Shown here piece by piece: positions 9,961-56,354 of a stretch of 64,000 nt of DNA (positions are counted from its first letter, which is position 1; every line of letters begins with the position of its first letter). The position numbers were made by a program, and so were the translations under genes. The DNA lies in assembly GCF_964194155.1 (NCBI RefSeq), contig NC_135901.1:24924001-24988000 (forward strand), written 5' to 3'. The stretch is from Cetorhinus maximus. Taxonomy: Eukaryota. The notes beneath the pieces were generated by a model that was not told the DNA's origin, did not search any database, and saw only the letters and a list, made by a program, of their open reading frames with translations.

Positions 9961-10988
9961 ATGGAAGGGAAAAGCCCCTTTCACAGCGGGGAGAAACGTG
10001 TACACATGTTCTGAGCGTGGACAAGGATTCAGAGGATCATCTCGCCTGTTGAAATACAAGTGCAGTTACACTGGGGAGAATCTGGAAATGTGGGGAATGT
10101 GAGGAGGGATTTAGCTACCTGGAAGCTGGAAATTCACCAATGCAGTCACACTGGGGAGGGGCCATTAAGCAGCTCCACGTGTGGGAAGGGATTCACTCAT
10201 ACATCCACCCCGCTGAGATGCCAGTGAGTTCACACTGGGGAGAAACCTATTAAATGCCCAGTCTGTGGGAAGTGCTATAAAAGTTCCAGCGAACTGATGT
10301 CTCATCAACATGTTCACACTGACAAGAGACCCTTCAGGTGCTCTCACTGTGGAACTGAGTTCAGGCGATCATATCACTGTACACAAACAAATTCATACTT
10401 GGGAGAAGCCATTCACCTGCTCTAAGCATGGGAGGGGATTCACTCAATCATCTCACCTCATGGCACACCGGCAAGTTCACACTGAGAAAAGACCTTTTAA
10501 ATGCCCAGACTGTGGGAAGTCCTATAAAAGTTCTGGGGACCTGATGCTCTATCAACTTGTTCACACTGATGAGAGACCATTCAAGTGCTGTCACTTTGGG
10601 ACTGGTTTCAAGCGATCATCTTACCTCACTGCACACCAGCGAGTTCACACTGGGGAAAAATTGATCACCTGCTCTGAGTGTGGGAAGAGATTCACTCAGT
10701 TACCCTCCATGCTGTCACACCCGCGAGTTCACACTAACGAGAGACCTTTTAAATGCTCAGAATGTGGGAACTGCTGTAAAAGTTCTGGGCAACGGATGCT
10801 CCATCAATGTGTTCGCACTGATGAGGCCCTTCAGGTGTTCTCACTATGGGACTGTGTTCAGGCGATCATCTCATCTCACTGTACACCAGAGAATTCACAC
10901 TGGGGAGAGACCATTCACCTGCTCCGAGTGTGGGAAGAGATTCACTCAGGAATCGCACCTCATGGCACACCACCGAGTTCGCAAGTGA
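9961..10988 (+). pseudogene. ZF1: C2H2 zinc-finger pseudogene (about 12 ancestral fingers)
   Basis: Starts atggaagggaaaagc like its paralogues. Several frameshifts, a CAG TGA GTT stop near 10228 and lost Cys/His ligands. Ends cgcaagtga; AATAAA at 11113-11118. Confidence 0.9.
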
Positions 10989-11249
10989 CTGTTAGAGCTC
11001 GATTTTGCTGTTAATCACATCCAGGATGTCACCATGTTCATTAGGGTCTTTTTCTGCGGATGCTAATAAATTCCAGCCCTGTTATAGATGTTAATCATCT
11101 GAATAAAAGTCAAATAAATCAGCTTTTTGTTAAACACATAGCCTGTCGAATCTTTTTAATATCTTTAACACAAGTTACTTCCTTTTTAAGTGCTCTCCCT
11201 CTCCCCTGTCTCCTCCATTCTCATCTCCAACAACAAGTGTGAGGAGCTG

Positions 11250-11396
11250 AAATAAAAACAGAAAGTGCTGGAAATAAATAAACTCTGCAGGTCTGGCAGT
11301 ATCTGCCAGAAAGTAGCAGGTTAATGATTCGAGTCCAATATGACTCATCTTCGGGACCCTACTCTTCTGGAGAGTCATGTTGGACTCGAAACGTTC
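11250..11396. mobile_element. Short Penelope-like end fragment with an inverted hammerhead stem-II region
   Basis: Minus arm ttcgagtccaatatgactc followed by plus arm gagtcatgttggactcgaaacgtt. Confidence 0.65.
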
Positions 11397-11917
11397 ATTT
11401 TGTTGACATACATTGCCTCCTGATCAAACAAGGCTTCGATTTTTAAATTTGCATCCTTGTTTTCAAATCCTTTCATGACCTCATCCTTTCCTGTCTCTGT
11501 AATCTCCAGTCTCACAATCCTCTGAGATATATGAAATCCCCCTCCTTTGCCCCCTGCCTCTCCAATCACTCCTCCCACAGGGACTGGAATCACGTTTAGG
11601 CCCAGATCAGGTGGCTATTCCCTTCCCTGGTGGATATTATTGAACCCAGTTCAGTTTCTGATGACGATTTAACAATTTTCATTGTCACTTTTTCCTAGTG
11701 CCGGCCCCAAAAATTACCACGTTCATTCAGCTGAATTTCACAACCTGCATTTGTGTTTTTTTGGGTTCTCTCACTCCCTTTTTTCTGGTTCAAATAAATT
11801 TCAGAGGGGATTAAGGAGAAGTATTTTCAGTCCAGAAACTCAAAGTAAGCATCACATCAGGATTGGAGAGAGTCGCCCAATTTATCCTAAACTGAATATC
11901 ATCCTCAGATTTTGAAC

Positions 11918-12841
11918 ATGGAAGGAAAAAGTGCCGTTCACAGTGGGGAGAAACAGTACACGTGTTGTGTGTGTGGACGAGGCTTCCGCCGATCATCTGG
12001 CCTATTGAAACACAAGTGCAGTCACTCCAGGGAGAAACCATGGAAATGTGATGATTGTGGGAAGGAATTCAGCTACCCATCTGAACTGAAAATTCATCGG
12101 CACCGTCACACCCGGGAGAGACAGTTCACCTGCTCTGAGCGTGGGAAGGGATTCATTCAGTCATCCCAACTGCTGAGACACCAACGGGTTCACACTGGGG
12201 AGAGGCCGTTCAGCTGCTCCCTGTGTGAGAAGGGATTTACTCAGTCATTGCAGCTGCTAATACACCAGCATGTTCACACTGGGGAGATGTTATTCGCATG
12301 CTCCCTGTGTGGGAAAAGATTCACTCAGTCATTGCACCTGCTGATACACCAGCAAGTTCGCACTGGGAAGAGGCCATTCACCTGCTCTGTATGTGGGAAG
12401 GGATTCACTCAGCCATCCCACTTGCGAGTTCACACTGGGGAGCGGCCATTCACCTGTTATGAGTGTGGGAATGGATTCACTCGGTCATCCCATCTGCTCA
12501 CACACCAGCGAGTTCACACTGCAGAGAGGCCATTCACTTGCTCCGTGTGTGGGAAGGGATTCACTCAGTCATCCCACCTGCTGGAACACCAGCGAGTTCA
12601 CACTCTGGAGAGACCGTTCAACTGCTCCAAATGTGGGAAGGAATTCTCTCAGCCATCCTCCCTGCTGAGACACAAGCAAATTCACACTGAGAGGCCTTTT
12701 AAATGCCCAGAATGTGGGAAGTGCTATAAAAGTTCTGGGGAACTGATGTCCCATCAACTTATTCACACTCAGGAGAGACCATTCAGGTGCTCTCGCTGTG
12801 GGACTGGGTTCAGCCGGTCAGACAAACTCACTGTTCACTAG
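11918..12841 (+). pseudogene. ZF2: decaying C2H2 zinc-finger gene (12 ancestral fingers, premature TAG)
   Basis: [19 protein letters not shown]... Finger 3 has C>R, finger 5 H>R and finger 6 an internal deletion. TAG falls in finger 11; one more finger follows to cacaaataa at 12940. AATAAA at 13065-13070. Could still make a truncated protein. Confidence 0.8.
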
Positions 12842-13134
12842 CGCACTCGCACTAGGCAGAGACCATTCACCTGCTCTGTGTGCAGGAAGAGATTCACTCA
12901 GTCACTGGCACTGCTGAGACACCAGAGAATTCACAAATAACTACAGTGGCTGATTTGGCTGTTAATCACATCCATCACTGGAGTATGTTCATTGGTGCCT
13001 GTTTCTGCTGATGTCAATAAACTCCAGTCTACTTATAGGGCTTAATATTCAGGGTAAAAAGTCAAATAAATCAACTTTGTGTTAAACACACTGTGATGAG
13101 TTTTAAAAAATATATCTCTAGCATAAGTTAGTTC

Positions 13135-13700: not shown

Positions 13701-14069
13701 GAGGGGGATGGCATCGATGATGAAGGTAACAGTTTATGGTGGGGAGGGGGTTTTCATGGGCTCAAATATTAACCCACCTCGCCTCGCAGCCATTTAGACT
13801 CGAGCATTAATCCCTGTCTCTGGCATATGATTACATTAAAGAAAAAGAGTCATTCAGTCCAATCTTGGCATGTTGACGAAAATTTCTGTTCATCAATTGG
13901 GGCTTTCATTGTCAGTACTACAATCCATAATTAACCATGTATCAGAATGACTACAGGAGCCCAGTACGACTACTCAGCACCGAGTTGTACTCTGAGCATG
14001 AGCAGTACAAGTGGTGGATATGCAACATGCTGATCAGGAGACAGTAGGAGGTGACATTTAATTACAGAC

Positions 14070-14640: not shown

Positions 14641-14745
14641 TAAAAACACAAAGCTAAAAGCTACTGCGGATGCTGGAAATCCAAAACAAAAACAGAATTA
14701 CCTGGAAAAACTCAGCAGGTCTGGCAGCATCGGTGGAGAAGAAAT

Positions 14746-14786
14746 CAGTCAACGTTTCGAGTCCTCATGACCCTTCAGCAGAACTG
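14746..14786 (-). ncRNA. Minimal type I hammerhead-like motif, variant core CUGCUGA
   Basis: CAGUU-CUGCUGA-A-GGGUC-AUGAG-GACUC-GAA-ACGU-U-GACUG. Stems I and II pair; palindromic ACGU replaces stem III. Confidence 0.65.
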
Positions 14787-15206
14787 AAGCATAGTTAGGA
14801 GAAAGATGAAATATAAGCTGGTTTAAGGTGGGGGGGCGGGGGGAGAGAGAGAAGTTGAGGGTGTGGTGATTGTGGAGATAAGCAAGCAGTGATAGGAGCA
14901 GATAATCAAAAGATGTTACAGACAAAAGGATCAAAGAGGTGTTGAAGGTGGTGATATTGTCTAAGAAAGGTGCTAATTAAGAATGGAAGACAGGGCACTC
15001 AAGGTACAGCTCTAGTGGGGTTGGGGTGGAAAGATTAACAAAGTTTTAGTTTTAGATTTAAAAATAATGGAAATAGGTGGGAAAAGAAGAATCTATATAA
15101 ATTATTGGAAAAAAAAAGGGAGGGGGGAGAAACGGGGTGGGGATGGTGGGAGGGGGGGGGGGCTGGTGGCGGGGAGTTTAAGATCTAAAGTTGTTGAATT
15201 CAATAT

Positions 15207-15884
15207 TCAGCCCGGAAGGCTGTAAGTGCCTAGTCGGAAGATGAGGTGCTGTTCCTCCAGTTTGCGTTGGGCTTCACTGGAACAATGCAGCAAGCCAAGG
15301 ACAGACATGTGGGCAAGAGAACAGGGTGGAGTGTTAAAATGGCAAGCGACAGGGAGGTTTGGGTCATTCTTGCGGACAGACCGCAGGTGTTCTGCAAAGC
15401 GGTCGCCCAGTTTGCGTTTGGTCTCTCCAATGTAGAGGAGACCGCATTGGGAGCAACGAATGCAGTAGACTAAGTTAGGGGAAATGCAAGTGAAATGCTG
15501 CTTCACTTGAAAGGAGTGTTTGGGCCCTTGGACGGTGAGGAGAGAGGAAGTGAAGGGGCAGGTGTTGCATCTTCTGCGTGGGCATGGGGAGGTGCCATAG
15601 GTGGGGGTTGAGGAGTAGGGGGTGATGGAGGAGTGGACCAGGGTGTCCCGGAGGGAACGATCCCTACGGAATGGCGTCAGGGGGGGTGAAGGGAAGATGT
15701 GTTTGGTGGTGGCATCATGCTGGAGTTGGCAGAAATGGTGGAGGATGATCCTTTGAATGCGGAGGCTGGTGGGGTGATAAGTGAGGACAAGGGGGACCCT
15801 ATCATGTTTCTGGGAAGGAGGAGAAGATGTGAGGGAGGATGTGCGGGATATGGGCCAGACACGGTTGAGGGCCCTGTCAACGAC
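15207..15884 (-). pseudogene. PLE C-terminal region with GIY-YIG endonuclease, left arm
   Basis: RVPLVLTYHP, CPRRRCNTC, NLVYCIRCSQCGLLYIGETKRKLGDRFAEH. A 1-bp deletion near 15224 changes GTLQPSGLN to GTYSLPG*. Confidence 0.9.
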
Positions 15885-15889
15885 GTTCA

Positions 15890-16600
15890 ACGGTCGTTGA
15901 CAGGGCCCTCAACCGTGTCCGGCCCATATCCCGCGCATCCTCCCTCACGCCTTCTCCTCCTTCCCAGAAACATGATAGGGTCCCCCTTGTCCTCACTTAT
16001 CACCCCACCAGCCTCCGCATTCAAAGGATCATCCTCCGCCATTTCCGCCAACTCCAGCATGATGCCACCACCAAACACATCTTCCCTTCACCCCCCCTGA
16101 CGCCATTCCGTAGGGATCGTTCCCTCCGGGACACCCTGGTCCACTCCTCCATCACCCCCTACTCCTCAACCCCCACCTATGGCACCTCCCCATGCCCACG
16201 CAGAAGATGCAACACCTGCCCCTTCACTTCCTCTCTCCTCAACGTCCAAGGGCCCAAACACTCCTTTCAAGTGAAGCAGCATTTCACTTGCATTTCCCCT
16301 AACTTAGTCTACTGCATTCGTTGCTCCCAATGCGGTCTCCTCTACATTGGAGAGACCAAACGCAAACTGGGCGACCGCTTTGCGGAACACCTGCGGTCTG
16401 TCCGCAAGAATGACCCAAACCTCCCTGTCGCTTGCCATTTTAACACTCCACCCTGTTCTCTTGCCCACATGTCTGTCCTTGGCTTGCTGCATTGTTCCAG
16501 TGAAGCCCAACGCAAACTGGAGGAACAGCACCTCATCTTCCGACTAGGCACTTTACAGCCTTCCGGGCTGAATATTGAATTCAACAACTTTAGATCTTAA
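15890..16600 (+). pseudogene. PLE C-terminal region with GIY-YIG endonuclease, right arm (open frame, 5'-truncated, no RT)
   Basis: Frame is open from TVVDRALNRV (15890) to GTLQPSGLNIEFNNFRS* (16600). VY..YIG GIY-YIG signature with an upstream Cys cluster. Confidence 0.9.
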
Positions 16601-16999
16601 ACTCCCCGCCACCCCCACCCCCCCCACCCCCCCTCCCACCATCCCCACCCCGTTTCTCCCCCCTCCCTTTTTTTTTCCCAATAATTTATATAGATTCTTC
16701 TTTTCCCACCTATTTCCATTATTTTTAAATCTAAAACTAAAACTTTGTTAATCTTTCCACCCCACCCCCACTAGAGCTGTACCTTGAGTGCCCTGTCTTC
16801 CATTCTTAATTAGCACCTTTCTTAGACAATATCACCACCTTCAACACCTCTTTGATCCTTTTGTCTGTAACATCTTTTGATTATCTGCTCCTATCACTGC
16901 TTGCTTATCTCCACAATCACCACACCCTCAACTTCTCTCTCTCCCCCCGCCCCCCCACCTCAAACTAGCTTATATTTCATCTTTCTCCTAACTATGCTT

Positions 17000-17040
17000 C
17001 AGTTCTGCCGAAGGGTCATGAGGACTCGAAACGTTGACTG
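17000..17040 (+). ncRNA. Minimal type I hammerhead-like motif, variant core CUGCCGA
   Basis: CAGUU-CUGCCGA-A-GGGUC-AUGAG-GACUC-GAA-ACGU-U-GACUG in the PLE 3' region. Confidence 0.65.
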
Positions 17041-17630
17041 ATTTCTTCTCCACCGATGCTGCCAGACCTGCTGAGTTTTTCCAGGTAATTCTGTTTTTGT
17101 TTTTTCACTATTTTGGAATTCTGCACCCTAGAAATACATCTTTGTGAACATCTTTAATTGATTTACTGACTTGTGATGATTTTAACTATTTTTTCACCTG
17201 TATTTGAGATTGGTTTGCTCTTCTACCCCTTTAACTTTCTTATTCTCTAAGGTTTGGTGATGCTTGTACTTTTCTGACCAAAGTGCGTCATCGCATATTA
17301 TCTCTGTTAAAGTTAATTTGCCACTTCACTGTCTAGTCTGTAACTTTTGCAATATATTCTTTCATTTTGTTGCATTCTTCCTCAGTTTTAGATATATGCC
17401 CCTAGTTTGGAATCAGCTGCAAACTTTGACATTGAATTACTTGTTCTCAGGTCCAAATCATTAACGTAAAGTATGAATAATAGTGGTACCAGAGCTGATC
17501 CTTGTGGATCACCACTTTCGACCTTTTTGTAATCTGAAATTGTGGGAGGAGGGCGGGAATAAATTTCACAGACATTGCATCAGCAGGGGGAACTTGAAAT
17601 CACAGGTGAACACAGTGGGGAGAACTTGAT

Positions 17631-20330: not shown

Positions 20331-20510
20331 ATTAACTTAGTTTAGAGATATTAAAAAGACTCAACAGGCTGTGTTTAAAACAAAGTGGGTTTCTTTGAAT
20401 TTTATGCAGAAAATGAGCTCCAATTACAGGACTGGAGTTTATTAACATCAGCAGAAACAGAACCCAATGAACATATTTCAGTCCTGAATATGCTTCACAG
20501 CAAAGTCCAA

Positions 20511-21106
20511 TCACTGTAGTAACTTGTGAACTTGCTGGTGTCTCAGCAGGGTGGAGGAGTGAGTGAATCCCTTCCCGTACATGGAACAGCTTAACGGCCT
20601 CTCCCCATTGTGAATTTGTTGATGTTTCTGTAGGTAGGATGAATGAGTGAATCCCTTCCCACACCTGGAGCAGGTCAATGGCCTGTCCCTATTGTGAAAG
20701 CGTTGGTGCCTCAGCAGGTCTGATGAATGAGTGAATGCTTTCCCACACTCAGAGCAGGTAAAGGCCACTCCCTGGTGCGAATTTATTGATGTTTCTGCAG
20801 GTCGGTTGAACAAGTGAATCCTTTCTCACACTCGGAGCAGGTAAACGGCCTCTCTCCAATGAACCCACTGAGGTCTCACCAGCTTAGTTGAATTAATGAA
20901 TCCCTTACCACACTCGGAGCAAGTGAACGGCCTCTCCCCAGTGTGAATGCACTGGTGTGTCAACAGGGTGGATAACTGAGTAAATCTTTTCCACACACTG
21001 AACAGGTGAATGCTCTCTCCCCACTGTGACAGCATCAATGAATTTCCAGCTCAGATGGAGATCTGAATTTCTTCCCACAGTACCCACATTTCCACGGTTT
21101 CTCCAT
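20511..21106 (-). pseudogene. ZF3: C2H2 zinc-finger pseudogene (TMEKP subfamily, about 7 fingers)
   Basis: accATGGAGAAACCGTGG gives [23 protein letters not shown]. Further frameshifts follow; remaining fingers lie in ORFs 20826-21038 and 20511-20813. Confidence 0.9.
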
Positions 21107-21539
21107 GGTGTCAGTGTCCTTGTGTTTCTTCAGATTGGACAATCAGTTGCAGCCTCATTCACACACACTTGTGTACAGCTTCTCCCCAACGTGAATGGTG
21201 TGATTTTTTTTTTCAGCTGTGTAACTGGTTAAAGTTCTTTCCAGTCAGTTCACACTCTCACTCAGGAGTGCGTGAATGTCTTGCTGTTTTTCCAGTCACA
21301 CTAATGTTTGAAATGTTCTCTCACAGACAGAACTAACACTTTTCCTTCCACATTCAAAGGCTGATAATATTCAGGTCCTGTTGAACCGAGTGACTCTGTC
21401 AGGTCTCAGTGTGATGTTTGTTATGATTTTCCCATCTGTAAATCCTCCCCTTCTAACTCCCTGTAAAAAGAGTTCAGAAAACTCTTCATTTTAAATACAG
21501 GATAGAAATTCTGAAGAAGCCTTCCAGCTCCAGCACCCG

Positions 21540-21960
21540 CACAACGCATCCTTCAGTCACAGCCCAGTCCCGCCCCTCATTTGTTCCGATTGGTTGGAAG
21601 GCCAGCTATTCCCGTTCGGTCCTCCAGGCCTACACCTCTTCCTATTGGTCCGGCTCTGCCGTCAATCAGCCGGGCTTTGTGAGGTATCAGGTGAGAGGTC
21701 ACTGTCGGGAGCGGGTTATTAAACCCCGGGCGGGGTTTACAAATCCCGAGTGGGGCCCCAGAGCCGAATATTAAACAATGAACATTCTCCACTCTCACTA
21801 TCCGCCGCTTCCAGCTTCTCTCCGGGAACAATCTCAAACAAAGAGACCAGGACCCTCCAAGCATGCGCGATCCACCCGGCCAACCCGCGGCAGATAGAGC
21901 GGTTTTGTCTCAGCACGGGATTGTGGGTAACCAGCCCGCCATTAGCGACAGGGTCTCCGT
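21540..21960. promoter_or_regulatory. CpG-rich promoter-like region upstream of ZF3
   Basis: GC box and two ATTGG boxes (21570-21670), gcatgcgc, and ZNF143/Staf-like TACCCACAATCCCGTGCT on the minus strand at 21912-21929. Confidence 0.7.
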
Positions 21961-22078
21961 TAATCTCAGTCTCAATCTGGGCAATTGAGGGTGAGGTTCT
22001 GCTGATGTAGGGATTGTAAAATAAAAAAAATCAATGTCTTTCTCGTAGCATCCGCATCCTGCAATATTGGCAATGAAC

Positions 22079-22479: not shown

Positions 22480-23828
22480 GGTGACTCAGGACATGGGACA
22501 AAAAAACAAATCCATTCCCACATTCACACCAGGTACATGGCCTCTCCCCACTGTGAATTTTCTAGTGTAATGAGTTCAGGTGAATAGTGAACACACTCCC
22601 ACAGTGAAAACACCTGAGTGGTCTGTCATCAGTGAGAACAAGTTGATGGAACATCAGTTCCTGGGAGCCTGCATAACACTTCCTGCATTCTGGGAATTTA
22701 AAAGACCTTCCATCGGTATGAACATGCGGGTGTTCCAATAGGATGGCTGAGCGAATTTCTTCCCTCACTCGGGGAGGTGAATGGCCTCTCCCTCGTGTGA
22801 ACTCACTGGTGTTTCAGCATGTTGGATGACCGAATGAATTCCTTCCCACACTCAGTGCAGGTGAATTGCCTTTCCCCAGTGTGAACCTCCTGGTGTCTCA
22901 GCAGGTTGGTTGCATTAATAAATCCCTTCCCACACTTGGGGCAAGTGAACGGCCTCTCTCCAGTGTGAACTCGCTGATGTGTCAGTAGGTCGGATGACTG
23001 AGTGAATCCCTTTCCACACTCAGAACAGGTGAATGGTCGCTCCCCAGTGTGAATTCGCTGATGTACAATGAGGACAGATGATTGCCTGAACCCAGTCCCG
23101 CAGTGAGAGCACCTGAACGGTCTCTCGTCAGTGTGAACACATCGATGGTACATCAGTTCCCCGGAACTTTTATAGAACTTTCCGCAGTCTGGACATTTAA
23201 AAGGTCTCTCATCAGTATGAACTTGCTGGTGTGTGTGCAGGTGGGACAACTGAACGAATCCTTTCCCTCACCTAGAGCAGGTGAAAGGTCTCTCCCCAGT
23301 GTGAAGTCGCTGGTGTTTCAGCAGGTGGGATGACTGAGTGAATCCCTTTCCGCAATCAGTGCAGGTGTATGGCCTCTCACCTGTGTGACTGCGCTGGTGT
23401 TTCTGCAGTTGGGATGACTGAATGAATCCCTTCCCACAGTCGGAGCAGGTAAACGGTCTCTCCCCAGTGTGAACTCTCTGGTGTGTCAAGAAGTGCAATG
23501 ACTGAGTGAATCCCTTCCCACACTCAGAGCAGGTGAATGCCCTCTCCCCAGTGTGACTGCACTGGTGTGCCAGCATAGCGGATGACTGGGTGAATCCCTT
23601 CCCACATTTGGAGCAGATGAATGGCCTCTCTCCAGTGTGACTACGCCGATGAGTTTCTAGCCTAACTGGATAATCAAATCCCTTCCCACAGTCCCCACAT
23701 TTCCACAGCTTCTCCACATTCTGGCTGCATTTATGCTTTGACAGGCCAGAGGATCGGCTGAAGCCTCGTCCACACACAGAACACATGTACGGTTTCTCTC
23801 TGCTGTGAACAGTGCTTTTTCCATCCAT
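22480..23828 (-). pseudogene. ZF4: C2H2 zinc-finger gene truncated by in-frame stops (12 clear fingers plus decayed ones)
   Basis: ATG at 23828 ([16 protein letters not shown]). TGA replaces a Cys at 23268-23270; the same frame continues to a second TGA at 22803-22805. AATAAA (-) at 22374-22379. A 186-aa six-finger product is possible. Confidence 0.85.
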
Positions 23829-26482: not shown

Positions 26483-26710
26483 CCTCTGAAACAATTTCAA
26501 ATTTAGAATCTACTGGAGCCTGCAGCTGAAAAGATATCAGGAGCACTGGAGTCAGAGAAAAATCTGGCAGTCTTTGAATCTTCCAACTCCCTGCAAAATG
26601 AAATTACAAAAGTCATAATTGTAGATGTGGTTAGAAATTCAGGAGAGACAAACACTTCTCTTGGTTTGAGTCTGCTGTGTGTAAATCCTCTCCTGCTAAC
26701 TCCCTGTAAA
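26483..26710 (-). other. Putative non-coding 5' exons of ZF4
   Basis: Acceptor-like ttttacag|ggagttagcaggagaggattt and ttttgcag|ggagttgg; donor GAG|gtgagt near 26483. Homologous to 63750-64000 and 40200-40300. Confidence 0.5.
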
Positions 26711-26769
26711 AGGAGTTTCCAAAATCCATCCCTGTCCTCACAAGATAGAAATTTATATCATCTCCTGCT

Positions 26770-27330
26770 TGTAACTTAGGCAGCGACATACTTGCATTGG
26801 AGGCATTCAGAAAATTTTCATGAGGCTGATTCCTGGGATGAGGGGGTTTGTCTTATGAGGGAAGGTTGAACAAGTTGGGTCTGTAGTCATTGGAGTTTAG
26901 GAGAATGAGAGGTGAGCTTACTGAAATATGTAAGATTCTGAGGGGGCTTGACAGGATGGATCAAAAAGGTTGCTTCCACTCATGGGGGAATCTAGAATCA
27001 ATGGGCACGGTTAAAAAATAAGGGTTCTCCCATTTAATGCTAGGATGAGGAGAAATTTCTTCTGAGGATTGTCAGTCTCTGGAAATATTTTCCCCACAGT
27101 GGGTGAGCAGTGGAGGCTGTTCATTGAACATATTCAATCCTGATTTAAACAGATTTTTGATCTACAAGTGAGTCAAGGGTTATATGGGGCTAGGTGGGTT
27201 GGGAGGTGGGAGGCATACAAGAAAGTGGCGTTAAGGCCACAGTCTGATCGACCGTGATCTTATTGAATGGTGGAGCATGCAAGATGGGCCAAATGGCCGA
27301 CTGCGAATTCTGATGTTCTTATTCTTATGT
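26770..27330 (+). mobile_element. Decayed CR1 3' fragment
   Basis: gattcctgggatg.., gagtttaggagaatgagaggtgag.., tail gatgttcttattcttatg. Confidence 0.75.
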
Positions 27331-27334
27331 TGTT

Positions 27335-27910
27335 AGGCCGGCCGCGCATTACCCCCCTGAAGATGGCGACAGTTAACCTGGGCCAGTCACCACCCCTTGT
27401 GTGCAGAATGACAATAAAATAAACGAGTCAATAATTTTCTCTCCTGGTCACCGGGACCCTGAGGCCCCGCCTACTCTGTTTCGTCACCGAGATGGCCGCG
27501 CATGCGCTCCAGTCCCCGCTGAACCAAGCTCGCGGCTGGGCCTGTTCCCGGGGAAAAGAAACCGAGACCCACAAACGTGGGACTTGCAGGGCCTTACTCG
27601 GGCCCTGCGGCCTACACCAGGTGTTTACGAAGCCTCCCCGCTCCTCAGCTCCTGGCTCCATTCCTCCCTTCCCTTCCCTTCCCACGCCGACTCGCCGGCT
27701 CCATTCCTCCTCTCGCTTTCCCGACCTGATCCGCTCGCTCTCATCCATTTCCAATCGCGTCGGTCACCCTCGCACGGCTTCTGAGCAAAGTGACACTGCG
27801 CATGCTCCTGGAAGTCCAGCACTGCACCTGCGCACTGGACTCCTGTAGAGTGAATAGGGCATATTCGTAGCCGCAGGGAATGTTGGGTGACAGCAGCGCC
27901 ATTGGAACAT
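27335..27910 (-). promoter_or_regulatory. CpG-island promoter, probably of ZF4
   Basis: CpG-dense; gcgcatgcgc, tgcgcatgc, aagatggcg (YY1-like) and a ZNF143-like site near 27872-27890. Inverted paralogue of 62740-63250. Confidence 0.75.
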
Positions 27911-28399
27911 CGAAATGCACAACAGAAAATAATATTATTACGCAATAGAGATAAAATAATAAAAACAAATTCTTGTAAATCTGCGCGCTGCCCTGTTCCA
28001 TACCCAAAATGTCTTAAACGGCTGCTCTCCTGTGGGAAAATGCTGAGCTTTTAAAGCTTTTCCCACTGGTTCCCCTTTCACTCCTCCCCAGAAACTGCTG
28101 ATTCTGGCTGGGTTCAAACCCACTGGTTCCTCTCTCTTACTCGGCCTATCCCCAGATACTGAATATTCACTGTTTTATAGAATGATGCAGCACAGATGGT
28201 CCATCATACCTGTGCTGGTTGTTTGGAAGATCTAGTGAATTAATTCCACAGACCTGTTGGCATTGTCACATCCATGTATATCTGCTGTAATAATGCAGGA
28301 GGTGAATGGAAAAGGCTCTCCAGGTGGATGCTTCTCAGACACACTCACCCCTGTGGAAAGATCGATTGACCAGTGAACTGGGCAGCTATTAAGGGTTCA

Positions 28400-32700: not shown

Positions 32701-32809
32701 AATTGCAGGGTTATGGAGAAAAGGCGGTAGAGTGTGAACAACTAAGTGATGTTAGAAGATAAGACCGGCCAATTGTCCTCCTTCTCTGGTGGAACCATTG
32801 TTTGATTCT

Positions 32810-33250
32810 TATACTAATGGCAGTCGGAGTTCCCACAATCCATCGCGCTCCAGAAACCGCTCTATCCAACTCGCTCCTTTCCCCAGGCGCTGAGAGTGCG
32901 CATGCTCCCCAGGGGCCAGCCGCGGGGCGTTCTGGGCGGCTCCTTTGTTGCGAGTCGAACTCGGTAGAAACGGGAGAAGAAACTGGGAAGCGGCGGCGAG
33001 GATGGGGGAGGCGCTGCAGCATCGCTTTAATGGGCAGCCCCGACCCCCAGTCCCCCAGCCCGGGGAGATCACCGCACGGCCGCCGGGTCCGGCCGCTCTC
33101 ATTCGGCCTCTGAGAGCCGCACTCGCTGTTCCTGAGGCTGCGCTCGCCCCTCGCTCAGTTTCCCCATTGAATCCTGTTTCTCTCCTTGTTTTTCCCAACT
33201 CAGATTCACCGCCTCATTTTCTTTTCTCCCTCTGAGCCCCTGAACTTCAT
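32810..33250 (+). promoter_or_regulatory. CpG-island promoter of ZF5
   Basis: Very CpG-rich; TTCCCACAATCCATCGCG (32830-32847, ZNF143/Staf-like) and tgcgcatgc. Confidence 0.8.
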
Positions 33251-33915
33251 CTGACAGGGTCATGTTGGAGAGCGGGCATTGACTGTCCTGGGAAACAACA
33301 GCAAGAGGAGCTCAGAGGCCGGAGGAGCAAAGGGAGCAGCAACTTCAGTCACCAATCGGGGGGGATTGAGGACTGGACCCTGAGTCAGTCAGTCAGTCAG
33401 GGGAGTCAGAGTGAACCCCTGGGGAATCAGTCATCTCTGGAAAAATTAAATGAGTATCTCTTTTATCAACAACATTATTTAACATTTATCAGTTTATTTA
33501 TTTTTTATTCTTTGTTATCTCAAACCCAGGACATCGCTGCAGGAATTCCTCAGGACAGTATCCTGGGCTCAACCATCTTCAGCTGCTTTATCAATAACCT
33601 TTTTTCCATCATAAGTCAGACTTGGGAATATATTGCCGTTCCTTCATTGTCGCTGGGTCGAAATCCTGGAACTCCCTAACAGTGCCAACACCACATGGAC
33701 TACAGCAGTTCGAGGAAGTGAACAGGAAGATTTGCTGACAGGAAACTCAAACCAAAAATCACGTCAAAACCTGACAAATTCACTCAATACATCAGGTGCT
33801 GGATGTCATTGAACCTTTAATGAGAAATGTTTTAACCAATTGCACAGCCTGAAAAAACATCTAATCATTCACAGCGGGGATAAACTGTGTATGAGGTTTG
33901 GTCTGACCATCCAAC

Positions 33916-34785
33916 ATGGACAGCCAGGAAGACACCGGCACCATGGAGAAACCGTGGAAATGTGGGGACTGTGGGAAGGGATTTGGTTCCCCATCAAAGC
34001 TGGAAATTCATCAACGCAGCCACACTGGGGAGAGGCCGTTCACCTGCTCCATGTGTGGGAAGGGATTCACTAATTCATCCAACCTGATGAGACACCAGCA
34101 CATTCACACTGAGCAGAGTTCAGTCATCTGCTCCGTGTGTGGGAAGGCAATCGGTCATTCATCAAACTTTCAGAGGCACCAGCAAACTCACAGTGGAGAG
34201 AGACCGTTCACCTGCTCCGTGTGTGGGAAGGGATTCACTCAGTCATCCTACCTGCTGACACACCAGCGTATTCACACGAGGGAGAGTCCGTTCATCTGTT
34301 CCTTGTGTGGAGAGGGATTTAATCAATTATCCAGGCTTCTGAATCATCAGAGAATTCACACTGGGGAAAGTCCATACACCTGCTTTATCTGTGGCAAGGG
34401 ATTTAATCGACCATCCAAACTACTGACACACCAGCGAATTCACACTGGGGAGAGGCCATTCACCTGCTCCATGTGCGGGAAGGGATACACCAATTCATCT
34501 GACCTGTTGACACATCAGCGAGTTCACACTGGCGAGAGGCCATTCACATGTTCCATGTGTGGAAAGGGATTCATTCGGTCATCCCACCTTCTGACACATC
34601 AACTTGTTCATACTGATCAGAGACCTTTTAAATGTTCTGAGTGTGAGAAGACCTTTAAAAGTAAAAAGGATCTGCTGACACACCAGCGAGTTCACACTGG
34701 GGAGAGGCCATTCACTTGCTCCTTGTGTGGGAAGGGATTCACTCAGTCATCCACCCTGCTGACACATCAGCGAGTTCACAAATGA
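33916..34785 (+). CDS. ZF5: intact 10-finger C2H2 zinc-finger protein
   Basis: Ten complete CxxC..HxxxH units with TGERPF-type linkers. Second ATG at 33943 is in ACCATGG context (MEKPWKC). No effector domain visible. Confidence 0.9.
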
Positions 34786-39659: not shown

Positions 39660-40170
39660 TCCAAAATGATGCAGAGTTTCAGCCAATGAGGGAGATCCTG
39701 GTTAAGCCCGCCCCTCATTCACTCCAATTGGCTGGAGGGCCAGCCGCTTCCCTTTGGTCCTGCAGTCCTGCCACCTCTTCCTATTGATCCAGAGCTGCCG
39801 TCAATCACCCAGGCATTGTGATGGGGGCATGCGCAGTGTGTCTGCTGGAGCTGGACATCAGTGCGCAGGTGCAACCCCGCCTCGAGTTTGGAGCATGCGC
39901 AGTGTGAGTGAGGGCGAAGGAAAGCTGCTTGTTTGTCAGGTCCGGAGCCGGTAAGATAATGGGCGGAATTGAGGGAGAGATGCAGCCGGTGGGTGGACGG
40001 GCAGGTTTCGTAAACACCTTGAGCCGTTCTGAAGCCAGAATAACCAGCTACCGGTTCCTCGCTGGTATCTGTGGGCGGCAGTTGCCCCGATCCACGTTCC
40101 TCGGTGAGAGACCCGGATTAACGGCCGCCATCTTGTTCAGCAGGGCGCATGCGCGGTCATCCGTGTCCCT
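39660..40170 (+). promoter_or_regulatory. CpG-rich promoter / first-exon region
   Basis: CCAAT/GC module, gcatgcgca twice, GGATTAACGGCCGCCATCTT, gcgcatgcgc; followed by family acceptor motifs near 40245 and 40354. Confidence 0.75.
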
Positions 40171-40498
40171 GTCAGCAGGAGGAGAGAATATTGAGCATTT
40201 CTATCCTGGACTGACAGGGATGGGTTTTGGAAACTATCTTTACAGTGGGTTAGAAGGGGAGGATTTACACACAGCAAACTCAAATCAAGAGAAATGTTTG
40301 CCCCTTCTCAGTTTCCATCCTGGATTTATAGTGATGATTATTGTAAATTTACAGGACACTGGAAGTGGAGGATTGACAGACGGGAAACTCAAATCAAACA
40401 TCTGACAGAGTCATTCAATTCATCAGAACCTGAATATCACCAAAGTTTGAATGTAGAAGTGAAACAGCTTGTCTGTAGACAAAGATTTCAGGTAAGCA

Positions 40499-43640: not shown

Positions 43641-44243
43641 AGGAGCTGGAGAACTGAACCCACGCAGAGGAGAGGGAGGGAGAAAACTGGGAGTGGAGGA
43701 AAGAAATGGTGGAGATGGTGAGATGGGTTTGGATTTCAGCCCAGGGAGGAGGGAGTGTGTAGGACGGGGATTTACAGCTTTGGGGGAACAAGAGAGAAAA
43801 CAATATTCCATTAAAACTAGAATTGTCTGCTCTGAATTTCTATCCCAGACTGACATTGATGACTTTTATAAACTCGTTTTCCAGGGTATTAGAAGGGAAG
43901 GATTTGCAAATATGAAACTCAAACCAAACATCTTCTGACAGAGTCACTCGATTCACCAGGACCTGAATTCCCTCAGACTTTGAATGTGGAAGGAGAAATG
44001 TTTGTCTGTTCTGTCAGTGGGGAAAGATTTTGAACTTCAGTGTCACTGGAAAAACTCCGAGACACACACTCACACCCGAGTGAGAGTGTTCAGTGAACTG
44101 ACTGTGAAAAGAGCTTTAACCAGTTAAACAGCCTGAAAAAGCATCACATCGTTCACAGTGAGGAGAAACTGTACACATGTTCTGTGCCTGGACAAGGTTT
44201 CAACTGATCATTCAACCTGGAGAGACACAAGGACACCCACACT

Positions 44244-45146
44244 ATGGAGAAACCATGGAAATGTGAGGACTGTGGGAAAGGATTCAGTTACCCATCCCTG
44301 CTGGAAAACCATCGACGCAGTCACACAGGGGAAAGGCCATTCACCTGCTCTGTGTGTGGGGAGGGATTTACTCAGTCATCTGGCCTTTGGTCACACCAAC
44401 GAATTCACACTGAGGAGAAGCTATTCAGCTGCACTTCCTGTGGAAAGAGGTTCAGGCACTCTTCAGCACTCACTGTACATCAACGCACTCACACTGGGGA
44501 GAGGCCATTCACCTGCTCCGAGTGTGGGAAGGGATTCACTCAGTCATTCCATCTTCTGACACACCAGCGAGTTCACACTGGAGAGAGGCTGTTCACTTGC
44601 TCTGTGTGTGGAAAAGGATTCACTGGGTCATCCCACCTGCTGTCACACCAGCGAATTCACATTGAAGAGAAGCCATTCAGTTGCACTTCCTGTGGAAAGA
44701 GTTTCAGACAGGCATCCTCCCTCATTTTACACCAGCGAATTCACACTGGGGAGAGACCATTCATCTGCTCCGAGTGTGGGAAGGGATTCACAGTTTTACC
44801 CAACCTGCTGAGACACCAGCGAATTCACACTGGGGAGAAGCCATTCAGCTGCACTTCCTGTGGGAAGAGTTTCAGGCAGTCATCCAACCTCACTGCTCAC
44901 CAACGCACTCACACTGCAGAGAAACCGTTCACATGCTCCGTATGTGGGAAAGGATTCAGTCGGTCATCCAACCTCACCGCACACCAGCGAGTTCACACTG
45001 GGGAGAGGCCGTTCACTTGCTCGCTGTGTGGGAAGGGATTTGCAAAGTCTTTCAACCTGCTGACCCACCAACGCACTCACACTGAGAAGAGGTTATTCAA
45101 CTCTCGGTGTGTGGGAAGGGATTCACTCAGTCACAATGCCTCCTGA
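44244..45146 (+). CDS. ZF6: C2H2 zinc-finger protein, 10 intact fingers, 11th frameshifted
   Basis: actATGG start ([10 protein letters not shown]) and ten full fingers. The tail [10 protein letters not shown] is an out-of-frame finger. Confidence 0.85.
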
Positions 45147-47730: not shown

Positions 47731-47839
47731 GCACAAACTTCAAGTGTGAGCCCAGACCCATTTTAAAACAGTGAACAAATAAATCCCTGATTTTACTGAG
47801 ACTCTTTTCCGTGTCCCAGCTCCTGTAAATACTGACTGG

Positions 47840-48135
47840 AAAGGGACCGGAATCTCAGGAGGCTCCGCTCCGCTGGCTGCTTGTGAGGAAGTGATCTCCG
47901 GCCAGATTAATGTGCTTCTGCTGTGAGTATTTAATAAAGTGTCCGGACCTCTCATTGTGCTTCCTGTCCAATATCCCCCTCATCCATGGATCTTCTGTTT
48001 TACTAATGCGGGAAAAAAAATGCCCGTTCACAGATTGGTCTTGAGGGCGGCTGGTTTACCCAGAATACCCATGGGTCAGAAAGTCCCCTGTCAATGAGAA
48101 CGGGAACCCATAGCGCCGGAATGAGGACCGGGCTG
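47840..48135 (+). promoter_or_regulatory. Promoter-like region upstream of ZF7
   Basis: Local CpGs, ggaagtg (ETS-like), and TACCCAGAATACCCATGG (48057-48074) in a block homologous to 21895-21945 (-) and 32815-32866. Confidence 0.55.
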
Positions 48136-48860
48136 TGCTCTGAGGCAGGGGCACAGCTGGGCGATGTTACTGAGGTGGAAATGGGTGGTTTTAGTGATCT
48201 GTAGTCAGAAGCTCAGTTTGGGCTGAAATATGACAACAAGATTGCGAGTATTCTGGTTCAGCCTCAGAGAGCTGGTTAGGGAGTGGAGACAATGGCTTTC
48301 ATCTTCCCAACGTTTAAATGGAGGGAATTTCTGCTCATCCAGTACTGGATGTCAGACAAGTCAGGAGGGTGCGTGGGTTGGAGGTGATGGTGTTCATTGA
48401 CACCTGTTACCTTCGTCCTTCTGGGTGGAGGAGGTTGAGGGTTTGGGAGATTCTGCCAAAGTTCTGGTCGAGCTGAAGATATATTAAACACATCTTCACC
48501 CACTGCATCTCCCAACTCTCTCTCTCCTCCCATGGAGGCCAGAATCTTGTATAGGCCCAGACTGGGTGGTAGGTTTCCTTCCCCGAAGGACATTAGTGAA
48601 CCAGTTGGGTTTTTATGACAATCCAGCAGTTTTCATGGTCACTTTTTCCTAGTGCCGGCCCCATAAATTACTAGATTCATTCAGCTCAGTTTCACAACCT
48701 GTTTTTGTGGGTTCTCCCTCACTCCCTTTTTTCTGTTTTAAATCAGTTTCACAGGGGATTAGAAGGGGAGGATTTCCAGTCAGGAAGCAGAAACAAAACA
48801 TCGCAGCAGAATCTGAAATCACCCAATTTATCGTAAACTGAATATCATTTGATTTTGAAC

Positions 48861-49814
48861 ATGGAAAGAGAAAGCACTGTTCACATCGCGGAGAAACCGT
48901 ACACGTGCTCTCTGTGTGGACGAGGCTTCAACAAATCATCTGACCTGTCAAGACACAAGCGCAGCCACACCAGGGAGAAACCGTGGAAATGTGGGGACTG
49001 TGGGAAGGGATTCAGATTCCCATCTGAGTTGGAAATGCATCGGCGCAGTCACACTGGGGAGAGGCCGTTCACCTGCTCCACGTGTGGGAAGGGATTTACT
49101 CTTTCATCCAACCTATTGAGCCACCAGCGAGTTCACACTGACGAGAGACCTTTTAAATGCCCAGACTGTGGGAAGTGCTTTAAAAGTTCCTGGGAGCTGA
49201 TGTACCATCAGTGTGTTCACACAGACAAGAGACCATTTAAATGCTCTCACTGCGGGACTGGGTTCAGGCGATCATCTCAACTCATTGTACACCAGCGAAT
49301 TCACACTGGGCAGAGGCCGTTCACCTGCTCCACTTGTGGGAAGGGATTCACTCATTCACCCCACCTGTTGAGACATCAGCGAGTTCACACGGGGGAGAGA
49401 CCGTTCATCTGCTCTGAGTGTGGGAAGGGATTCACTCGGTCATCCCACCTGCTGGCACACCAGCGAGTTCACACTGGGGAGAGGCCTTTCAACTGCCCCC
49501 AGTGTCGGAAGGGATTCACTCAGTTATCTAGCCTGCTGAGACACCAGCAAATTCACACTGGGAAGAGGCCATTTTCCTGCCCTCAGTGTGGGAAGAGATT
49601 CACTACCTCATCCAACCTGCTGACACACCAACGAATTCACACTGGAGAGAGGCCATTCACCCGCCCTCAGTGTGGCAAGAGATTCACTACCTCGTCCAAC
49701 CTGCTGACACACCAGCGAGTTCACACTGAGGAGAGACCATTCACCTGTGCCCAGTGTGGAAAGAGATTCACTCATTCACCCCACCTGCTGAGACACCAGC
49801 GAATTCACAAGTAA
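48861..49814 (+). CDS. ZF7: C2H2 zinc-finger protein, 11 fingers (10th has C>R)
   Basis: aacATGG start [16 protein letters not shown]; 317 aa uninterrupted. Acceptor ttcacag|gggattagaagg upstream; AATAAA at 49935-49940. Confidence 0.9.
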
Positions 49815-51633: not shown

Positions 51634-51634
51634 C

Positions 51635-53562: not shown

Positions 53563-53577
53563 ACTTAACTGTATAAG

Positions 53578-54360
53578 CCAGTTAACTAATGGACTAGCTG
53601 CAGCTGCAAGCAGAGCCTGTATAATCTTGGTTTTAAAGCTGGGCTAAAACTCACTTTCTCCCAACCCAAAGAGTAACTTTTAGCAACACTTAGAAGGACA
53701 AGGGCAGCAAACAGAGGGGAACACCACCACCTGGAAATTCCCCTCCAAGCCACTCACCATCCTAACTTGGAAATACGTTGCCTTTCCTTCACTGTTGCTG
53801 GACAAAAATTCTGGAATTCCTAACAGCACTGTGTGTGTACCTACATCATGTGGACGACAGTGGCTCAAGAAAGCAGTTCACCATCACCTTCTCAAGGGCA
53901 ATTAGGGATGGGCAATAAATGCTGGCCTAGCTAGCGATTCCCACAGCCTATAAATGAATAAAAAATTTAACGAATGGTTTAGAGAGAAATTAATCCTTAA
54001 AAGTCCCTCTCTTACCAAACGCCAACTTAAGCACTCCAATGCAACCCAAAGCAACACTCCAGTGAAGATAAAAGCATAACTATCAATAGCTTGCTTTTCT
54101 GCTGCCTGAATCTCGCTTCTGAAAACCTGTTTAACCCAGTTAACTAATTAACTAGCTGCAGCTGCAAGCAGAACCTGTATAACCCCTGTTTTAAAGCTGG
54201 ACTAAAACTCAACTTCTCCCAACCCAAAGAACAACTTTTAGTTAGTTGCTAAATTAAAGAAAGATTATACTTTAGATAGAAATTAACCCTTAAAAGTCCC
54301 TCTCTCATCAAACTCCAGCTGAAGCACTCTGATGCACCCCAAAGCAGCCCTGCTGTGCAG
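53578..54360. repeat. Two-copy tandem repeat (about 270 bp) upstream of CR1 ORF1; first copy split by a LINE-A tail (about 53690-53965)
   Basis: ccagttaactaat..ctagctgcagctgcaagcaga..ttttaaagctgg..cccaacccaaaga at 53578 and 54137; agaaattaa.ccttaaaagtccctctct at about 53985 and 54278. Confidence 0.8.
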
Positions 54361-54519
54361 ACCAGTGAGGGTGATAATGGAACATTTTTATTTAAAAGTG
54401 CAGTGATACCTGATCACCTATTGAGTGAGTGAGTCTTTCACAGTGTTATTCAAATAATCACAGCTACTGCTGGTGATTCTCTGGCTACAATTTGATAAGA
54501 AAGGAACCAGGAGCATGAT

Positions 54520-55505
54520 GTCCCATCTAGCTGGGCACCAGTGGAGGGGCATTGGGGGAGGATGGTTTGGTTCATGGTGTCAATGACTGCAGAGAGGCCG
54601 AGAAGGACAAGGAGGGAGAGTTCATCTTGGTGACATGGAATGTAAGTTGTGATTCTAAGAGCTCATTCAACACTGTGACAGGGGCAACAGTCATATTGGG
54701 GGGATTCAAAAATGGAATTCCTGGAAAGATGGGCATGGATTTGGGAAGTGACAAGGACTTTGGATGCAAAAGGGAGGTTGGAGATGGGGTGGGAGTTTGT
54801 AAATATGTTGTGGTCAAGGGTTGGTTTTATTGAGGAGGGGCTGATGATGGCAGATTTGAAGGACAGAGGGACAGAACCTGAAGAGAGAGAACCATTAACA
54901 ATGTCAGTGAAAATGGGGAAGTTGGAAGATTAGCAGATTAGTGAGAATAGGGTCAATGGAGCAGGAGGTGGTTCTCATGGACAAGATGAGCTCTGAGAGG
55001 GCATGAGGAGAGATGGCAGATAAACATAAGAAATATGAGAGTTCAGGGCTAGGAGAAGGAGCAGCTTGAGAGGCAGTTCAGCCCGGTGTGTTAGTGGAAG
55101 GGAGGAAAGCAGCTGAGGCAGTTGATAGGATTGTCTTAATCATAGCGACAAAGAAACTCCATGAGCTCCTCACACTTGTTTTTTTCTAATTCAATCATTG
55201 GACATGGGCATCGCAGTTGAGGCCAGCATTTATTGCTCATCCCTAATTTCCCTTGAGAAGGTGAGGGTCAGCTGCCTTTTTAAGGCAGCCCTGTGGTGTA
55301 GGTACACCCACAGTGCTGTTAGGGAGGGAGTTCCAGGAATTTGACCCAGCGACAGTGAAGGAACGGCGATATATTTCCAAGTCAGGATGGTAAGTGGCTT
55401 GGAGGGGAACTTCCAGGTGATGATGTTCCCATCTATCTACTTGCCTTGTCCTTCTAGGTGGTAGCGGTCGTGGGTTCAGAAGGTGCTGTCTAAGGAGCCT
55501 GGTGA
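54520..55505 (-). mobile_element. L2 fragment downstream of ZF8, with a LINE-A tail (about 55185-55505)
   Basis: 54520-55180 is the reverse complement of about 50050-50730; the tail matches 1135-1440. Confidence 0.8.
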
Positions 55506-55736
55506 GTTGGAGTTTGAGAACAGAGGAGACAGGAAAGGGAGAGCACTTCAAAGGAATTAACTTGTGTTATAGATATTAAAAAGACTCGGCACACTGTGTG
55601 TTTAACACAAAGCTGATTTATTTTAATTATATCCAGAATATTAACACCTATAACTAGGCTGGAGTTTATTAACATCAGCAGAAAAAGAGCCCAATTTAGT
55701 CCTGATGTGATTAGCAGCAAAATCCAAACACTATAT

Positions 55737-56354
55737 TTACTTGTGAACTCGCTGGTGTGTCAGCAGGGTGGATGACTGAGTGAATCCCTTCCCACAATCA
55801 GAGCAGGTGAATGGTCTCTCCCCAGTGTGAACTCGCTGGTGCTCAGTGAGGTGAGATGACCTCCTGAACCCAGTCCCACAGTGAGAGCACCTGAACGGTC
55901 TCTCGTCAGTGTGAACACGTTGATGGGACATCAAGACCCCGGAACTTCTATAGCACTTCCCGCAGTCTGGGCATTTAAAAGGTCTCTCCCCAGTGTGACC
56001 TCGCTGGTGTATCAGCAACCTGGAGGACTGAGTAAATCCCTTCCCACACATGTGGCAAGAGAATGGCCACTCCCCAGTGTGAACTTGCTGGTGTCTTGTC
56101 AGGTGGCATGATCGAGTGAAACCTATCCCGCAGTCAGAGCAGGTGAATGGCCTCTCCCCAGTGTGAGTGCGCCTGTGACTTTCCAGCTGAACTGGATAAT
56201 TATATCCCTTCCCACAGTCTCCACATTTCCACAGTTTCTCCCTGCTGTGGCTGCATTTGTGTTTTGATAGGTTAGATGATTGGCTGAAGCCTCATCCGCA
56301 CACAGAACACGTGTACGGTTTCTCTCCACTGTGAACGGTGCTTTTCCCTTCCAT
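55737..56354 (-). pseudogene. ZF8: C2H2 zinc-finger pseudogene (about 7 fingers)
   Basis: ATG at 56354 gives MEGKSTVHSGEKPYTCSVCG* (TGA in finger 1). Further indels near 56050-56125; last fingers in ORF 55737-56051. Confidence 0.9.

What the first reader, a model, noticed from the sequence alone, without database searches (positions are those of the whole stretch)
9961..56354. KRAB-less ZF cluster with a conserved N-terminal 'WKC..P' finger, a candidate lineage-specific effector
Seen: no locus shows an effector domain, yet all eight carry at finger 1 or 2 the pattern EK[P/L]WKCxxCGKxFxxP[S/V]xL[E/K]xH. The helix variants are [54 protein letters not shown] and NYPVQLESH, with a frameshifted copy in ZF1. 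Trp before the first Cys, Pro near the helix start and an acidic residue set it apart from the variable downstream fingers. Known: KRAB-ZFPs use a fixed N-terminal repressor plus fast-evolving fingers to silence transposons. Inferred: this finger may recruit a cofactor, making the cluster a KRAB-independent transposon-control system. It could instead just reflect common ancestry.
Basis: partly seen in the sequence, partly recalled or inferred. Interest (0 to 1): 0.72.

Follow-up and report, generated by a model that had tools for sequence, protein, structure and literature searches.

The report
Shark zinc-finger family's fixed front finger
These eight genes are a slice of a shark chromosome holding an estimated 3,000 zinc-finger gene copies that lack the usual silencing domain and nearly always keep one distinctive finger at the front, which may be a protein-contact handle but changes at its DNA-reading positions as fast as ordinary fingers, so its job is untested.

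Summary
Observation confirmed, interpretation half supported. All eight loci carry the Trp/Pro/Glu ('P') finger at rank 1-2, but only five translate it in a frame with five or more fingers. In a position-chosen 1.2 Mb sample of the 65 Mb contig, the strict signature sat at rank 1-3 in 54 fingers and in 0 of 472 later ones. It occurs in sharks, rays and skates; Trp+Pro was in 0 of 2,715 other animals' fingers. In-frame stops lie between the splice acceptor and the start codon, so no upstream domain is fused there; the genome gave one KRAB match. A conserved single-copy shark/ray gene has the same finger order and a coding N-terminus matching the cluster's now non-coding leader: the family was trimmed from the front, up to but not past this finger (0 of 97 starts lost it; 17 lost the finger before it). 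Against an effector: whole-finger dN/dS equals its neighbours' (0.60 vs 0.61), base-reading sites vary equally (1.24 vs 1.30), and only signature sites are tighter (0.23 vs 0.64). No partner, repression or transposon target is shown. This scan noted the family and finger before in other shark DNA.

The parts
9961..11014 (+). ZF1, type A gene, broken (stop at codon 18, frameshifts); frameshifted P finger about 10083-10150
11918..12841 (+). ZF2, type A gene, open frame of 307 aa; P finger at 12026-12109 (rank 2)
20500..21468 (-). ZF3, type B gene, broken (stop just after first His of P finger); P finger 21026-21109
22797..23828 (-). ZF4, type A gene, open for 186 codons then a mid-array stop; P finger 23637-23720
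33916..34785 (+). ZF5, type B gene, open frame with 10 fingers; P finger 33940-34023 (first finger)
40191..40476 (+). ninth, truncated locus: acceptor and leader of a finger exon with no array behind it
   Evidence: self-similarity to the ZF3, ZF6 and ZF8 acceptor regions
43878..44243 (+). ZF6 non-coding leader: acceptor, then decayed finger-like sequence with in-frame stops and upstream ATGs
44244..45146 (+). ZF6, type B gene, open frame of 300 aa starting four residues before the Trp; P finger 44241-44324
47820..47922 (+). likely upstream exon of ZF7 (3' end from a contig joint, 5' end read by eye)
   Evidence: joint 47922 to 48747, GT..AG, in 4 of 4 runs laid; sequence
48747..48860 (+). ZF7 leader between acceptor and start codon, with in-frame TAA at 48834-48836; homologous to the coding N-terminus of the single-copy relative
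48861..49814 (+). ZF7, type A gene, open frame of 317 aa; finger 0 then P finger 48969-49052
55737..56354 (-). ZF8, type A gene, stop at codon 21 inside finger 0; P finger 56163-56246
27301..28050 (-). CpG-rich likely promoter of ZF4 (similar islands at about 6001-6450, 21451-22050, 32701-33300, 39751-40350, 58051-58650, 62701-63450)
   Evidence: CpG counts and shared blocks

Best explanation
These are members of a shark-and-ray family of finger-only DNA-binding proteins that keep one marked finger at the front, and that finger likely carries a small protein-contact surface on the side away from the DNA while still being able to sit on DNA like its neighbours. Shown: fixed front position, about one copy per gene, restriction to sharks and rays among the proteins seen, no fused upstream domain, tighter constraint at the signature residues. 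Inferred history: an ancestral gene like the single-copy relative (linker, two atypical Cys fingers, finger 0, P finger, array) was duplicated thousands of times; its front end decayed into leader; new starts arose before finger 0 (type A) or four residues before the Trp (type B), and finger 0 was deleted in type C. Inferred mechanism: the variable downstream fingers pick DNA targets, plausibly repeats, and the constant face of the P finger (Lys before Cys1, Asp in the knuckle, Pro+1, Glu+5, Trp) binds a shared partner or another family member, replacing a separate effector domain.
For: Position: strict signature at rank 1-3 in 54 fingers, 0 of 472 later; in 14 shark proteins all 17 matches are at rank 1-2 or open a new array after a gap of 374 or more residues. 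Retention: of 97 type-A starts found by DNA upstream of the finger, 79 had finger 0 plus P, 17 had P without finger 0, 0 had finger 0 without P, 1 had neither. Type B: TGA in finger 0 in 29 of 31 genes and a start with A at -3 and G at +4 in 31 of 31. Constraint: W/P/E sites dN/dS 0.23 [0.08-0.44] vs 0.64 [0.42-0.91] at the same sites downstream, 28 disjoint pairs without window genes; 0 amino-acid changes at Pro+1; Pro+1 in 95 of 95 in-register slots. Helix is acidic (mean -0.78) where the other classes are basic (+0.27 to +1.22). No upstream fusion: frame open from acceptor to Met in 0 of 54 A and 0 of 31 B genes; 1 KRAB match in the genome, on another contig. Ancestry: leader of 38 of 38 tested genes translates at 8-11 of 20 identities to the single-copy gene's N-terminus, mismatches 165/233/485 by codon position. 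Precedent for one finger of an array recruiting a chromatin protein: Kipferl finger 4 and Rhino (PMC11245307, abstract and section 5 read).
Against: Whole-finger dN/dS is the same as downstream (0.60 vs 0.61) and the base-reading positions -1, 2, 3, 6 change as fast (1.24 vs 1.30), as for a DNA reader; an unfiltered comparison gave slower contacts (0.66 vs 1.04 and 1.07), so the two estimates differ. Trp is no tighter than the Phe it replaces (0.29 vs 0.25) and is Tyr in the single-copy gene. A clean-ended subfamily has Gly at +5 (5 of 36 clean genes); signature retention did not differ between clean and damaged genes (28/36 vs 46/59; low power). Finger 0 and an internal finger type are more uniform (18.4 and 16.5 bits) than P (28.1). 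Finger-0 loss may be a single event: 7 changes on the tree but one clade not rejected, p-AU 0.067. Pro at +1 occurs in fingers of the solved ZFP568 chains. In the single-copy gene all fingers are about equally conserved. 5 of 14 type C genes have an open frame back to the acceptor, so a coding upstream exon is not excluded for that clade. Which residues face away from DNA is recalled C2H2 knowledge, not modelled.
Confidence: 0.4

Rival explanations
1. The P finger is an ordinary DNA-reading finger with fold-stabilising substitutions (Pro at the helix start, Trp/Glu/Arg packing); it stays single and in front because units at the edge of a tandem array are anchored to unique flanking DNA and escape shuffling. 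The proteins act as bare DNA binders or use other surfaces.
For: Contact positions evolve like downstream fingers (1.24 vs 1.30) and whole-finger dN/dS is equal. Synonymous divergence rises from the P slot to later slots (0.14, 0.18, 0.23), as shuffling of inner fingers predicts. The first finger of mouse PRDM9's array is likewise conserved across alleles (10.1101/2023.09.06.556583, passage read). Pro+1 exists in ZFP568 fingers.
Against: In type A the true edge unit is finger 0, and it is the one lost (17 of 97) or silenced, not P (0 of 97). An edge position does not by itself give low dN/dS at Pro+1, Glu+5, Asp and Lys. The helix is acidic, unlike the other finger classes.
Confidence: 0.38
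2. Pure shared ancestry: the finger is inherited from one founder gene and most copies are young, so it looks conserved without special selection.
For: A single-copy shark/ray gene holds the same finger and the other finger types; damaged and clean genes keep the signature equally; many copies are recent duplicates at over 90% identity.
Against: Signature-site dN/dS is 0.17-0.23 with synonymous change present; the Trp form is shared by several shark genera and a skate while other positions of the same finger turn over quickly.
Confidence: 0.15
3. The real effector is encoded on an upstream exon or a separate short frame that was missed.
For: The leader is decayed coding sequence; 5 of 14 type C genes are open to the acceptor; some public gene models add N-terminal peptides (P0007, P0014).
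Against: In-frame stops before the Met in all 85 A and B genes with a located acceptor; 0 of 129 upstream frames reach a Pfam cut-off; the one observed joint adds only a short out-of-frame upstream frame to ZF7 (read by hand).
Confidence: 0.07

Closest known systems
KRAB zinc-finger proteins of lobe-finned fish and tetrapods
   Same: Clustered, birth-and-death tandem C2H2 genes with the array on one exon, faster change at base-reading positions (downstream -1, 3, 6 dN/dS 1.56 [1.10-2.05]), retroelement fragments between genes. Family described in PMC13709654 (abstract read).
   Different: No KRAB: one genome match, off this contig; proteins start at or one finger before the P finger; no known corepressor link.
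Cyprinid FiNZ zinc-finger genes (PMC10547256; passages, section 4 and supplement rows read)
   Same: KRAB-less, lineage-specific, hundreds to thousands of copies concentrated on one chromosome, one constant N-terminal element with acidic residues.
   Different: FiNZ is a 28-residue non-finger domain on its own upstream exon; here the constant element is itself a C2H2 finger on the array exon and upstream exons are cut off by stops. FiNZ knock-down derepressed transposons; nothing comparable is tested here.
Drosophila Kipferl finger 4 (PMC11245307) and single N-terminal dimerising C2H2 domains of Diptera (PMC12774644, abstract read)
   Same: Precedents for one C2H2 finger acting as a protein-contact module, in Kipferl within a DNA-binding array and in transposon control.
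   Different: No sequence relationship shown; no CGx-hydrophobic extra strand was looked for or seen; those are single genes or small sets, not a chromosome-scale family.
Conserved single-copy shark/ray zinc-finger gene (L211; P0002, P0152, P0155, annotated only as ZNF696/697-like)
   Same: Same acceptor-proximal linker, finger 0, P helix and downstream finger types, in the same order.
   Different: Keeps the N-terminal linker and two atypical Cys fingers as coding sequence, has Tyr for Trp, and is nearly invariant between sharks and a ray.

Membership tests
KRAB zinc-finger proteins | N-terminal KRAB domain spliced to the array | tested here: not met
   1 KRAB match in the genome, on C34 (150 of 152 candidates scored); 0 of 129 upstream frames; in-frame stops before the Met
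KRAB zinc-finger proteins | Tandem C2H2 array on a single exon, genes in clusters | tested here: met
KRAB zinc-finger proteins | Diversifying base-reading residues | tested here: inconclusive
   positions -1, 3, 6 downstream 1.56 [1.10-2.05], with +2 included 1.30 [0.93-1.66], against 0.58 for non-contact sites; pairwise counts only, finger shuffling can inflate them
KRAB zinc-finger proteins | Corepressor (TRIM28) recruitment and binding to transposons | not testable with these tools
   needs pull-down and ChIP
FiNZ zinc-finger proteins | 28-residue FiNZ domain on an upstream coding exon | tested here: not met
   no upstream frame can join the array through the known acceptor in 85 of 85 A and B genes; no FiNZ profile was available, so the domain itself was not searched
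FiNZ zinc-finger proteins | Concentration on one chromosome | tested here: met
   best 150 finger hits lie on C24 from 1.6 to 64.8 Mb or on small contigs, with one each on C6 and C11; 101 arrays in 1.2 Mb sampled
SCAN zinc-finger proteins | SCAN domain upstream of the array | tested here: not met
   none of the 150 best-scored of 4,987 candidates lies on C24; none in upstream frames
Protein-contact C2H2 fingers (Kipferl type, dimerising type) | A single finger necessary and sufficient for binding a protein | not tested
Protein-contact C2H2 fingers (Kipferl type, dimerising type) | Constraint pattern distinct from DNA-reading fingers | tested here: inconclusive
   signature sites tighter, contact sites and whole finger not

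The most novel reading that the evidence does not exclude
Sharks and rays run a chromosome-scale transposon-control system in which a zinc finger itself is the effector: thousands of finger-only proteins share one front finger that docks a common silencing partner, a third solution beside KRAB and FiNZ, reached by trimming an ancestral gene down to that finger.
Probability: 0.25. Interest if true: 0.82.

Novelty: new variant of a known kind. Interest (0 to 1): 0.5.

Why it matters
Cartilaginous fishes lack KRAB zinc-finger genes (PMC8455134 and PMC11603059, passages) yet have very many finger arrays (3,586 in catshark, 1,851 in white shark, 1,223 in a skate; supplement of PMC10547256), and how these act is open. 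A single, fixed, lineage-specific front finger gives one 28-residue object to tether, mutate and pull down, and the single-copy relative gives an outgroup and a control. If it recruits a partner it is a new effector type; if not, it shows that thousands of bare arrays are kept without any effector.

Tried and rejected
Sequencing runs: no RNA holder listed on record; the four runs laid are contigs, guessed RNA, from two other organisms, so the joint is a hint and may come from a paralogue; no second stretch was obtained. Complex prediction of the finger with itself was not available; nothing was folded, no verdict. Clean versus damaged genes: no difference even at zinc ligands (33/36 vs 54/59), so the test lacks power. 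Protein atlas gave only generic finger clusters. PDB search gave generic arrays, no specific relative. The profile search was dominated by long arrays and served only as a background set. Read-through or selenocysteine at the shared stops: rejected, because type B leaders carry several stops and frameshifts and type A stops are TAA. The Met-Ala-Ala frames at the CpG islands point away from the window's finger genes and match no family. Search for upstream coding exons of the open type C clade and of L211 found shared non-coding blocks and a minisatellite, no clear exon; these frames were not scanned with Pfam. Literature: 10 searches found no paper describing this finger; PMC10602909 had no shark passage; files 3-5 of the PMC10547256 supplement were not searched and may bear on novelty. 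Rows dropped: dN/dS used only genes with five or more fingers in frame and in-register slots (65 of 74), and downstream fingers under 80% DNA identity were left out.
Full report
Observation. Five loci (ZF2, 4, 5, 6, 7) translate the finger in a frame of five or more fingers; ZF1 is frameshifted, ZF3 stops inside the finger and ZF8 stops upstream of it. A ninth, truncated exon start lies near 40200-40480. The spacers hold LINE-like fragments.

Setting. The window lies on a 65.16 Mb contig (C24) of a 4 Gb genome; the 150 best hits to one P finger run from 1.6 to 64.8 Mb of it or lie on small contigs, with one each on C6 and C11. I took 1.2 Mb at positions chosen by coordinate: 101 arrays, 798 fingers, 70 P-type fingers. 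Density is low below 18 Mb (1 array in 110 kb) and high above (32 in 290 kb of the evenly spaced set); extrapolation gives roughly 3,000 P fingers, pseudogenes included (my estimate). Of 50 sampled genes with a recognisable start, 32 had five or more fingers in frame and 19 a clean end. Named relatives come from sharks, rays and a skate. High finger-array counts in these animals are already tabulated in the supplement of PMC10547256, so the expansion as such is known; I found no description of the finger in 10 searches.

Position and range. Strict W+P+E/D: rank 1 in 32, rank 2 in 21, rank 3 in 1, 0 of 472 later fingers. In 14 long shark gene models all 17 matches are at rank 1-2 or start a new array. 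Background: W+P in 0 and P+E in 2 of 2,715 fingers from 106 other animals' proteins; P+E in 0 of 893 from 110 more. A few internal or doubled copies exist.

Gene structure. Three front ends recur: A (short peptide, finger 0, P), B (Met four residues before the Trp, dead fingers in the leader), C (finger 0 deleted). From the acceptor motif to the Met the frame is open in 0 of 54 A, 0 of 31 B and 5 of 14 C genes; 4 more A genes had no located acceptor. The A stop is TAA nine codons upstream in 40 of 51; the B stop is TGA in finger 0 in 29 of 31; the start context is strong in 50 of 51 and 31 of 31. Contigs of four runs (guessed RNA, other organisms, three studies) join 47922 to 48747 with GT..AG ends, the predicted ZF7 acceptor; by hand this adds only a 35-codon out-of-frame upstream frame. 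No upstream frame of 129 reached a Pfam cut-off; the genome gave one KRAB match and no SCAN match on C24 among 150 scored.

Origin. A ray protein led to a gene nearly invariant between sharks and a ray, with one clear best match in this genome, L211 on C251. It has linker, two atypical Cys fingers, finger 0, the P helix with Tyr for Trp, then the family's other finger types. Its first 20 codons match the cluster's leader at 8-11 of 20 residues in 38 of 38 genes of that geometry, with mismatches skewed to third positions (the genes are not independent and L211 is GC-rich). I infer that the family descends from such a gene and lost its front end; whether L211 is founder or sister is not shown. 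Of 97 type-A starts, 17 lost finger 0 and none lost P, but those 17 may be one to seven events.

Constraint. Across 74 open genes the P finger's summed entropy (28.1 bits) is close to generic fingers (31.6) and above finger 0 (18.4) and one internal type (16.5). Pairwise dN/dS on disjoint pairs chosen by upstream distance: whole finger 0.58 vs 0.63 and 0.58 (31 pairs); without window genes and with collinear downstream fingers 0.60 vs 0.61; contacts 1.24 vs 1.30; W/P/E 0.23 vs 0.64 (28 pairs, 113 finger comparisons). Site by site the extra constraint is at Pro+1, Glu+5, the knuckle Asp and the Lys before Cys1, not at Trp. These sites were chosen after seeing the motif. A subfamily with Gly at +5 is open and amplified.

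Mechanism. The pattern is a finger whose base-reading positions drift or diversify like any other while a separate set of residues, which by recalled C2H2 geometry face away from DNA, is held. I put 0.40 on a protein-contact face, 0.38 on a stabilised DNA reader anchored at the array edge, 0.15 on ancestry alone, 0.07 on a missed upstream effector. Transposon control rests on analogy with KRAB and FiNZ families and on faster change at contact residues; no target was tested.

Comparison and verdict. It works like KRAB and FiNZ clusters in layout and turnover but fails membership of both. Papers seen: PMC10547256 (passages, section 4, supplement rows), PMC8455134, PMC11603059, PMC13047888 and 10.1101/2023.09.06.556583 (passages), PMC11245307 (abstract, section 5), PMC12774644 and PMC13709654 (abstracts), PMC10602909 (term search, no hits). 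Earlier notes of this scan on other shark windows reached similar readings; they are not independent evidence. New variant of a known kind; interest 0.5.

Noticed in passing
L211 (G000:C251:202424-206302), minus strand: Single-copy, GC-rich zinc-finger gene nearly invariant between sharks and a ray, holding the family's whole finger toolkit and two atypical Cys fingers; a second GC-rich nine-finger gene lies 11 kb away.
   Followed up: partly
window 14683-17103: A 2.4 kb near-perfect inverted repeat (98% arm identity) whose arms carry frames resembling the nuclease end of Penelope-like retroelements (resemblance recalled; no Pfam hit at 1e-5).
   Followed up: no
window 27360, 40134, 63211 and CpG islands at 27301-28050: Promoter-like islands share YY1-like and NRF1-like motifs (motif names recalled); the YY1-like motif points away from the adjacent finger gene in the window.
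   Followed up: partly
window 43878-44243; type B leaders in L007, L026, L029: Type B leaders carry upstream ATGs, including a short frame opening a dead finger, which could tune translation.
   Followed up: no
window 49137-49304; L093, L105: A stereotyped internal two-finger unit (Lys-Ser-Ser helix finger then His/Gly-Thr-Gly finger) recurs at variable positions and is as uniform as the P finger.
   Followed up: partly
window 26506-26752: A copy of the type B acceptor region lies 2-3 kb upstream of many type A finger exons, suggesting an extra leader exon made by partial duplication.
   Followed up: partly
L001, L018, L024, L025, L028, L036; L019:5754-6716: C24 samples also hold tRNA-like genes (9 calls in 40 loci, one read as selenocysteine tRNA) and an intronless rhodopsin-family receptor frame.
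   Followed up: no
L034, L057, L059, L063, L178: One type C clade keeps an open frame from the acceptor to the fingers, the only place an upstream coding exon could still join.
   Followed up: partly
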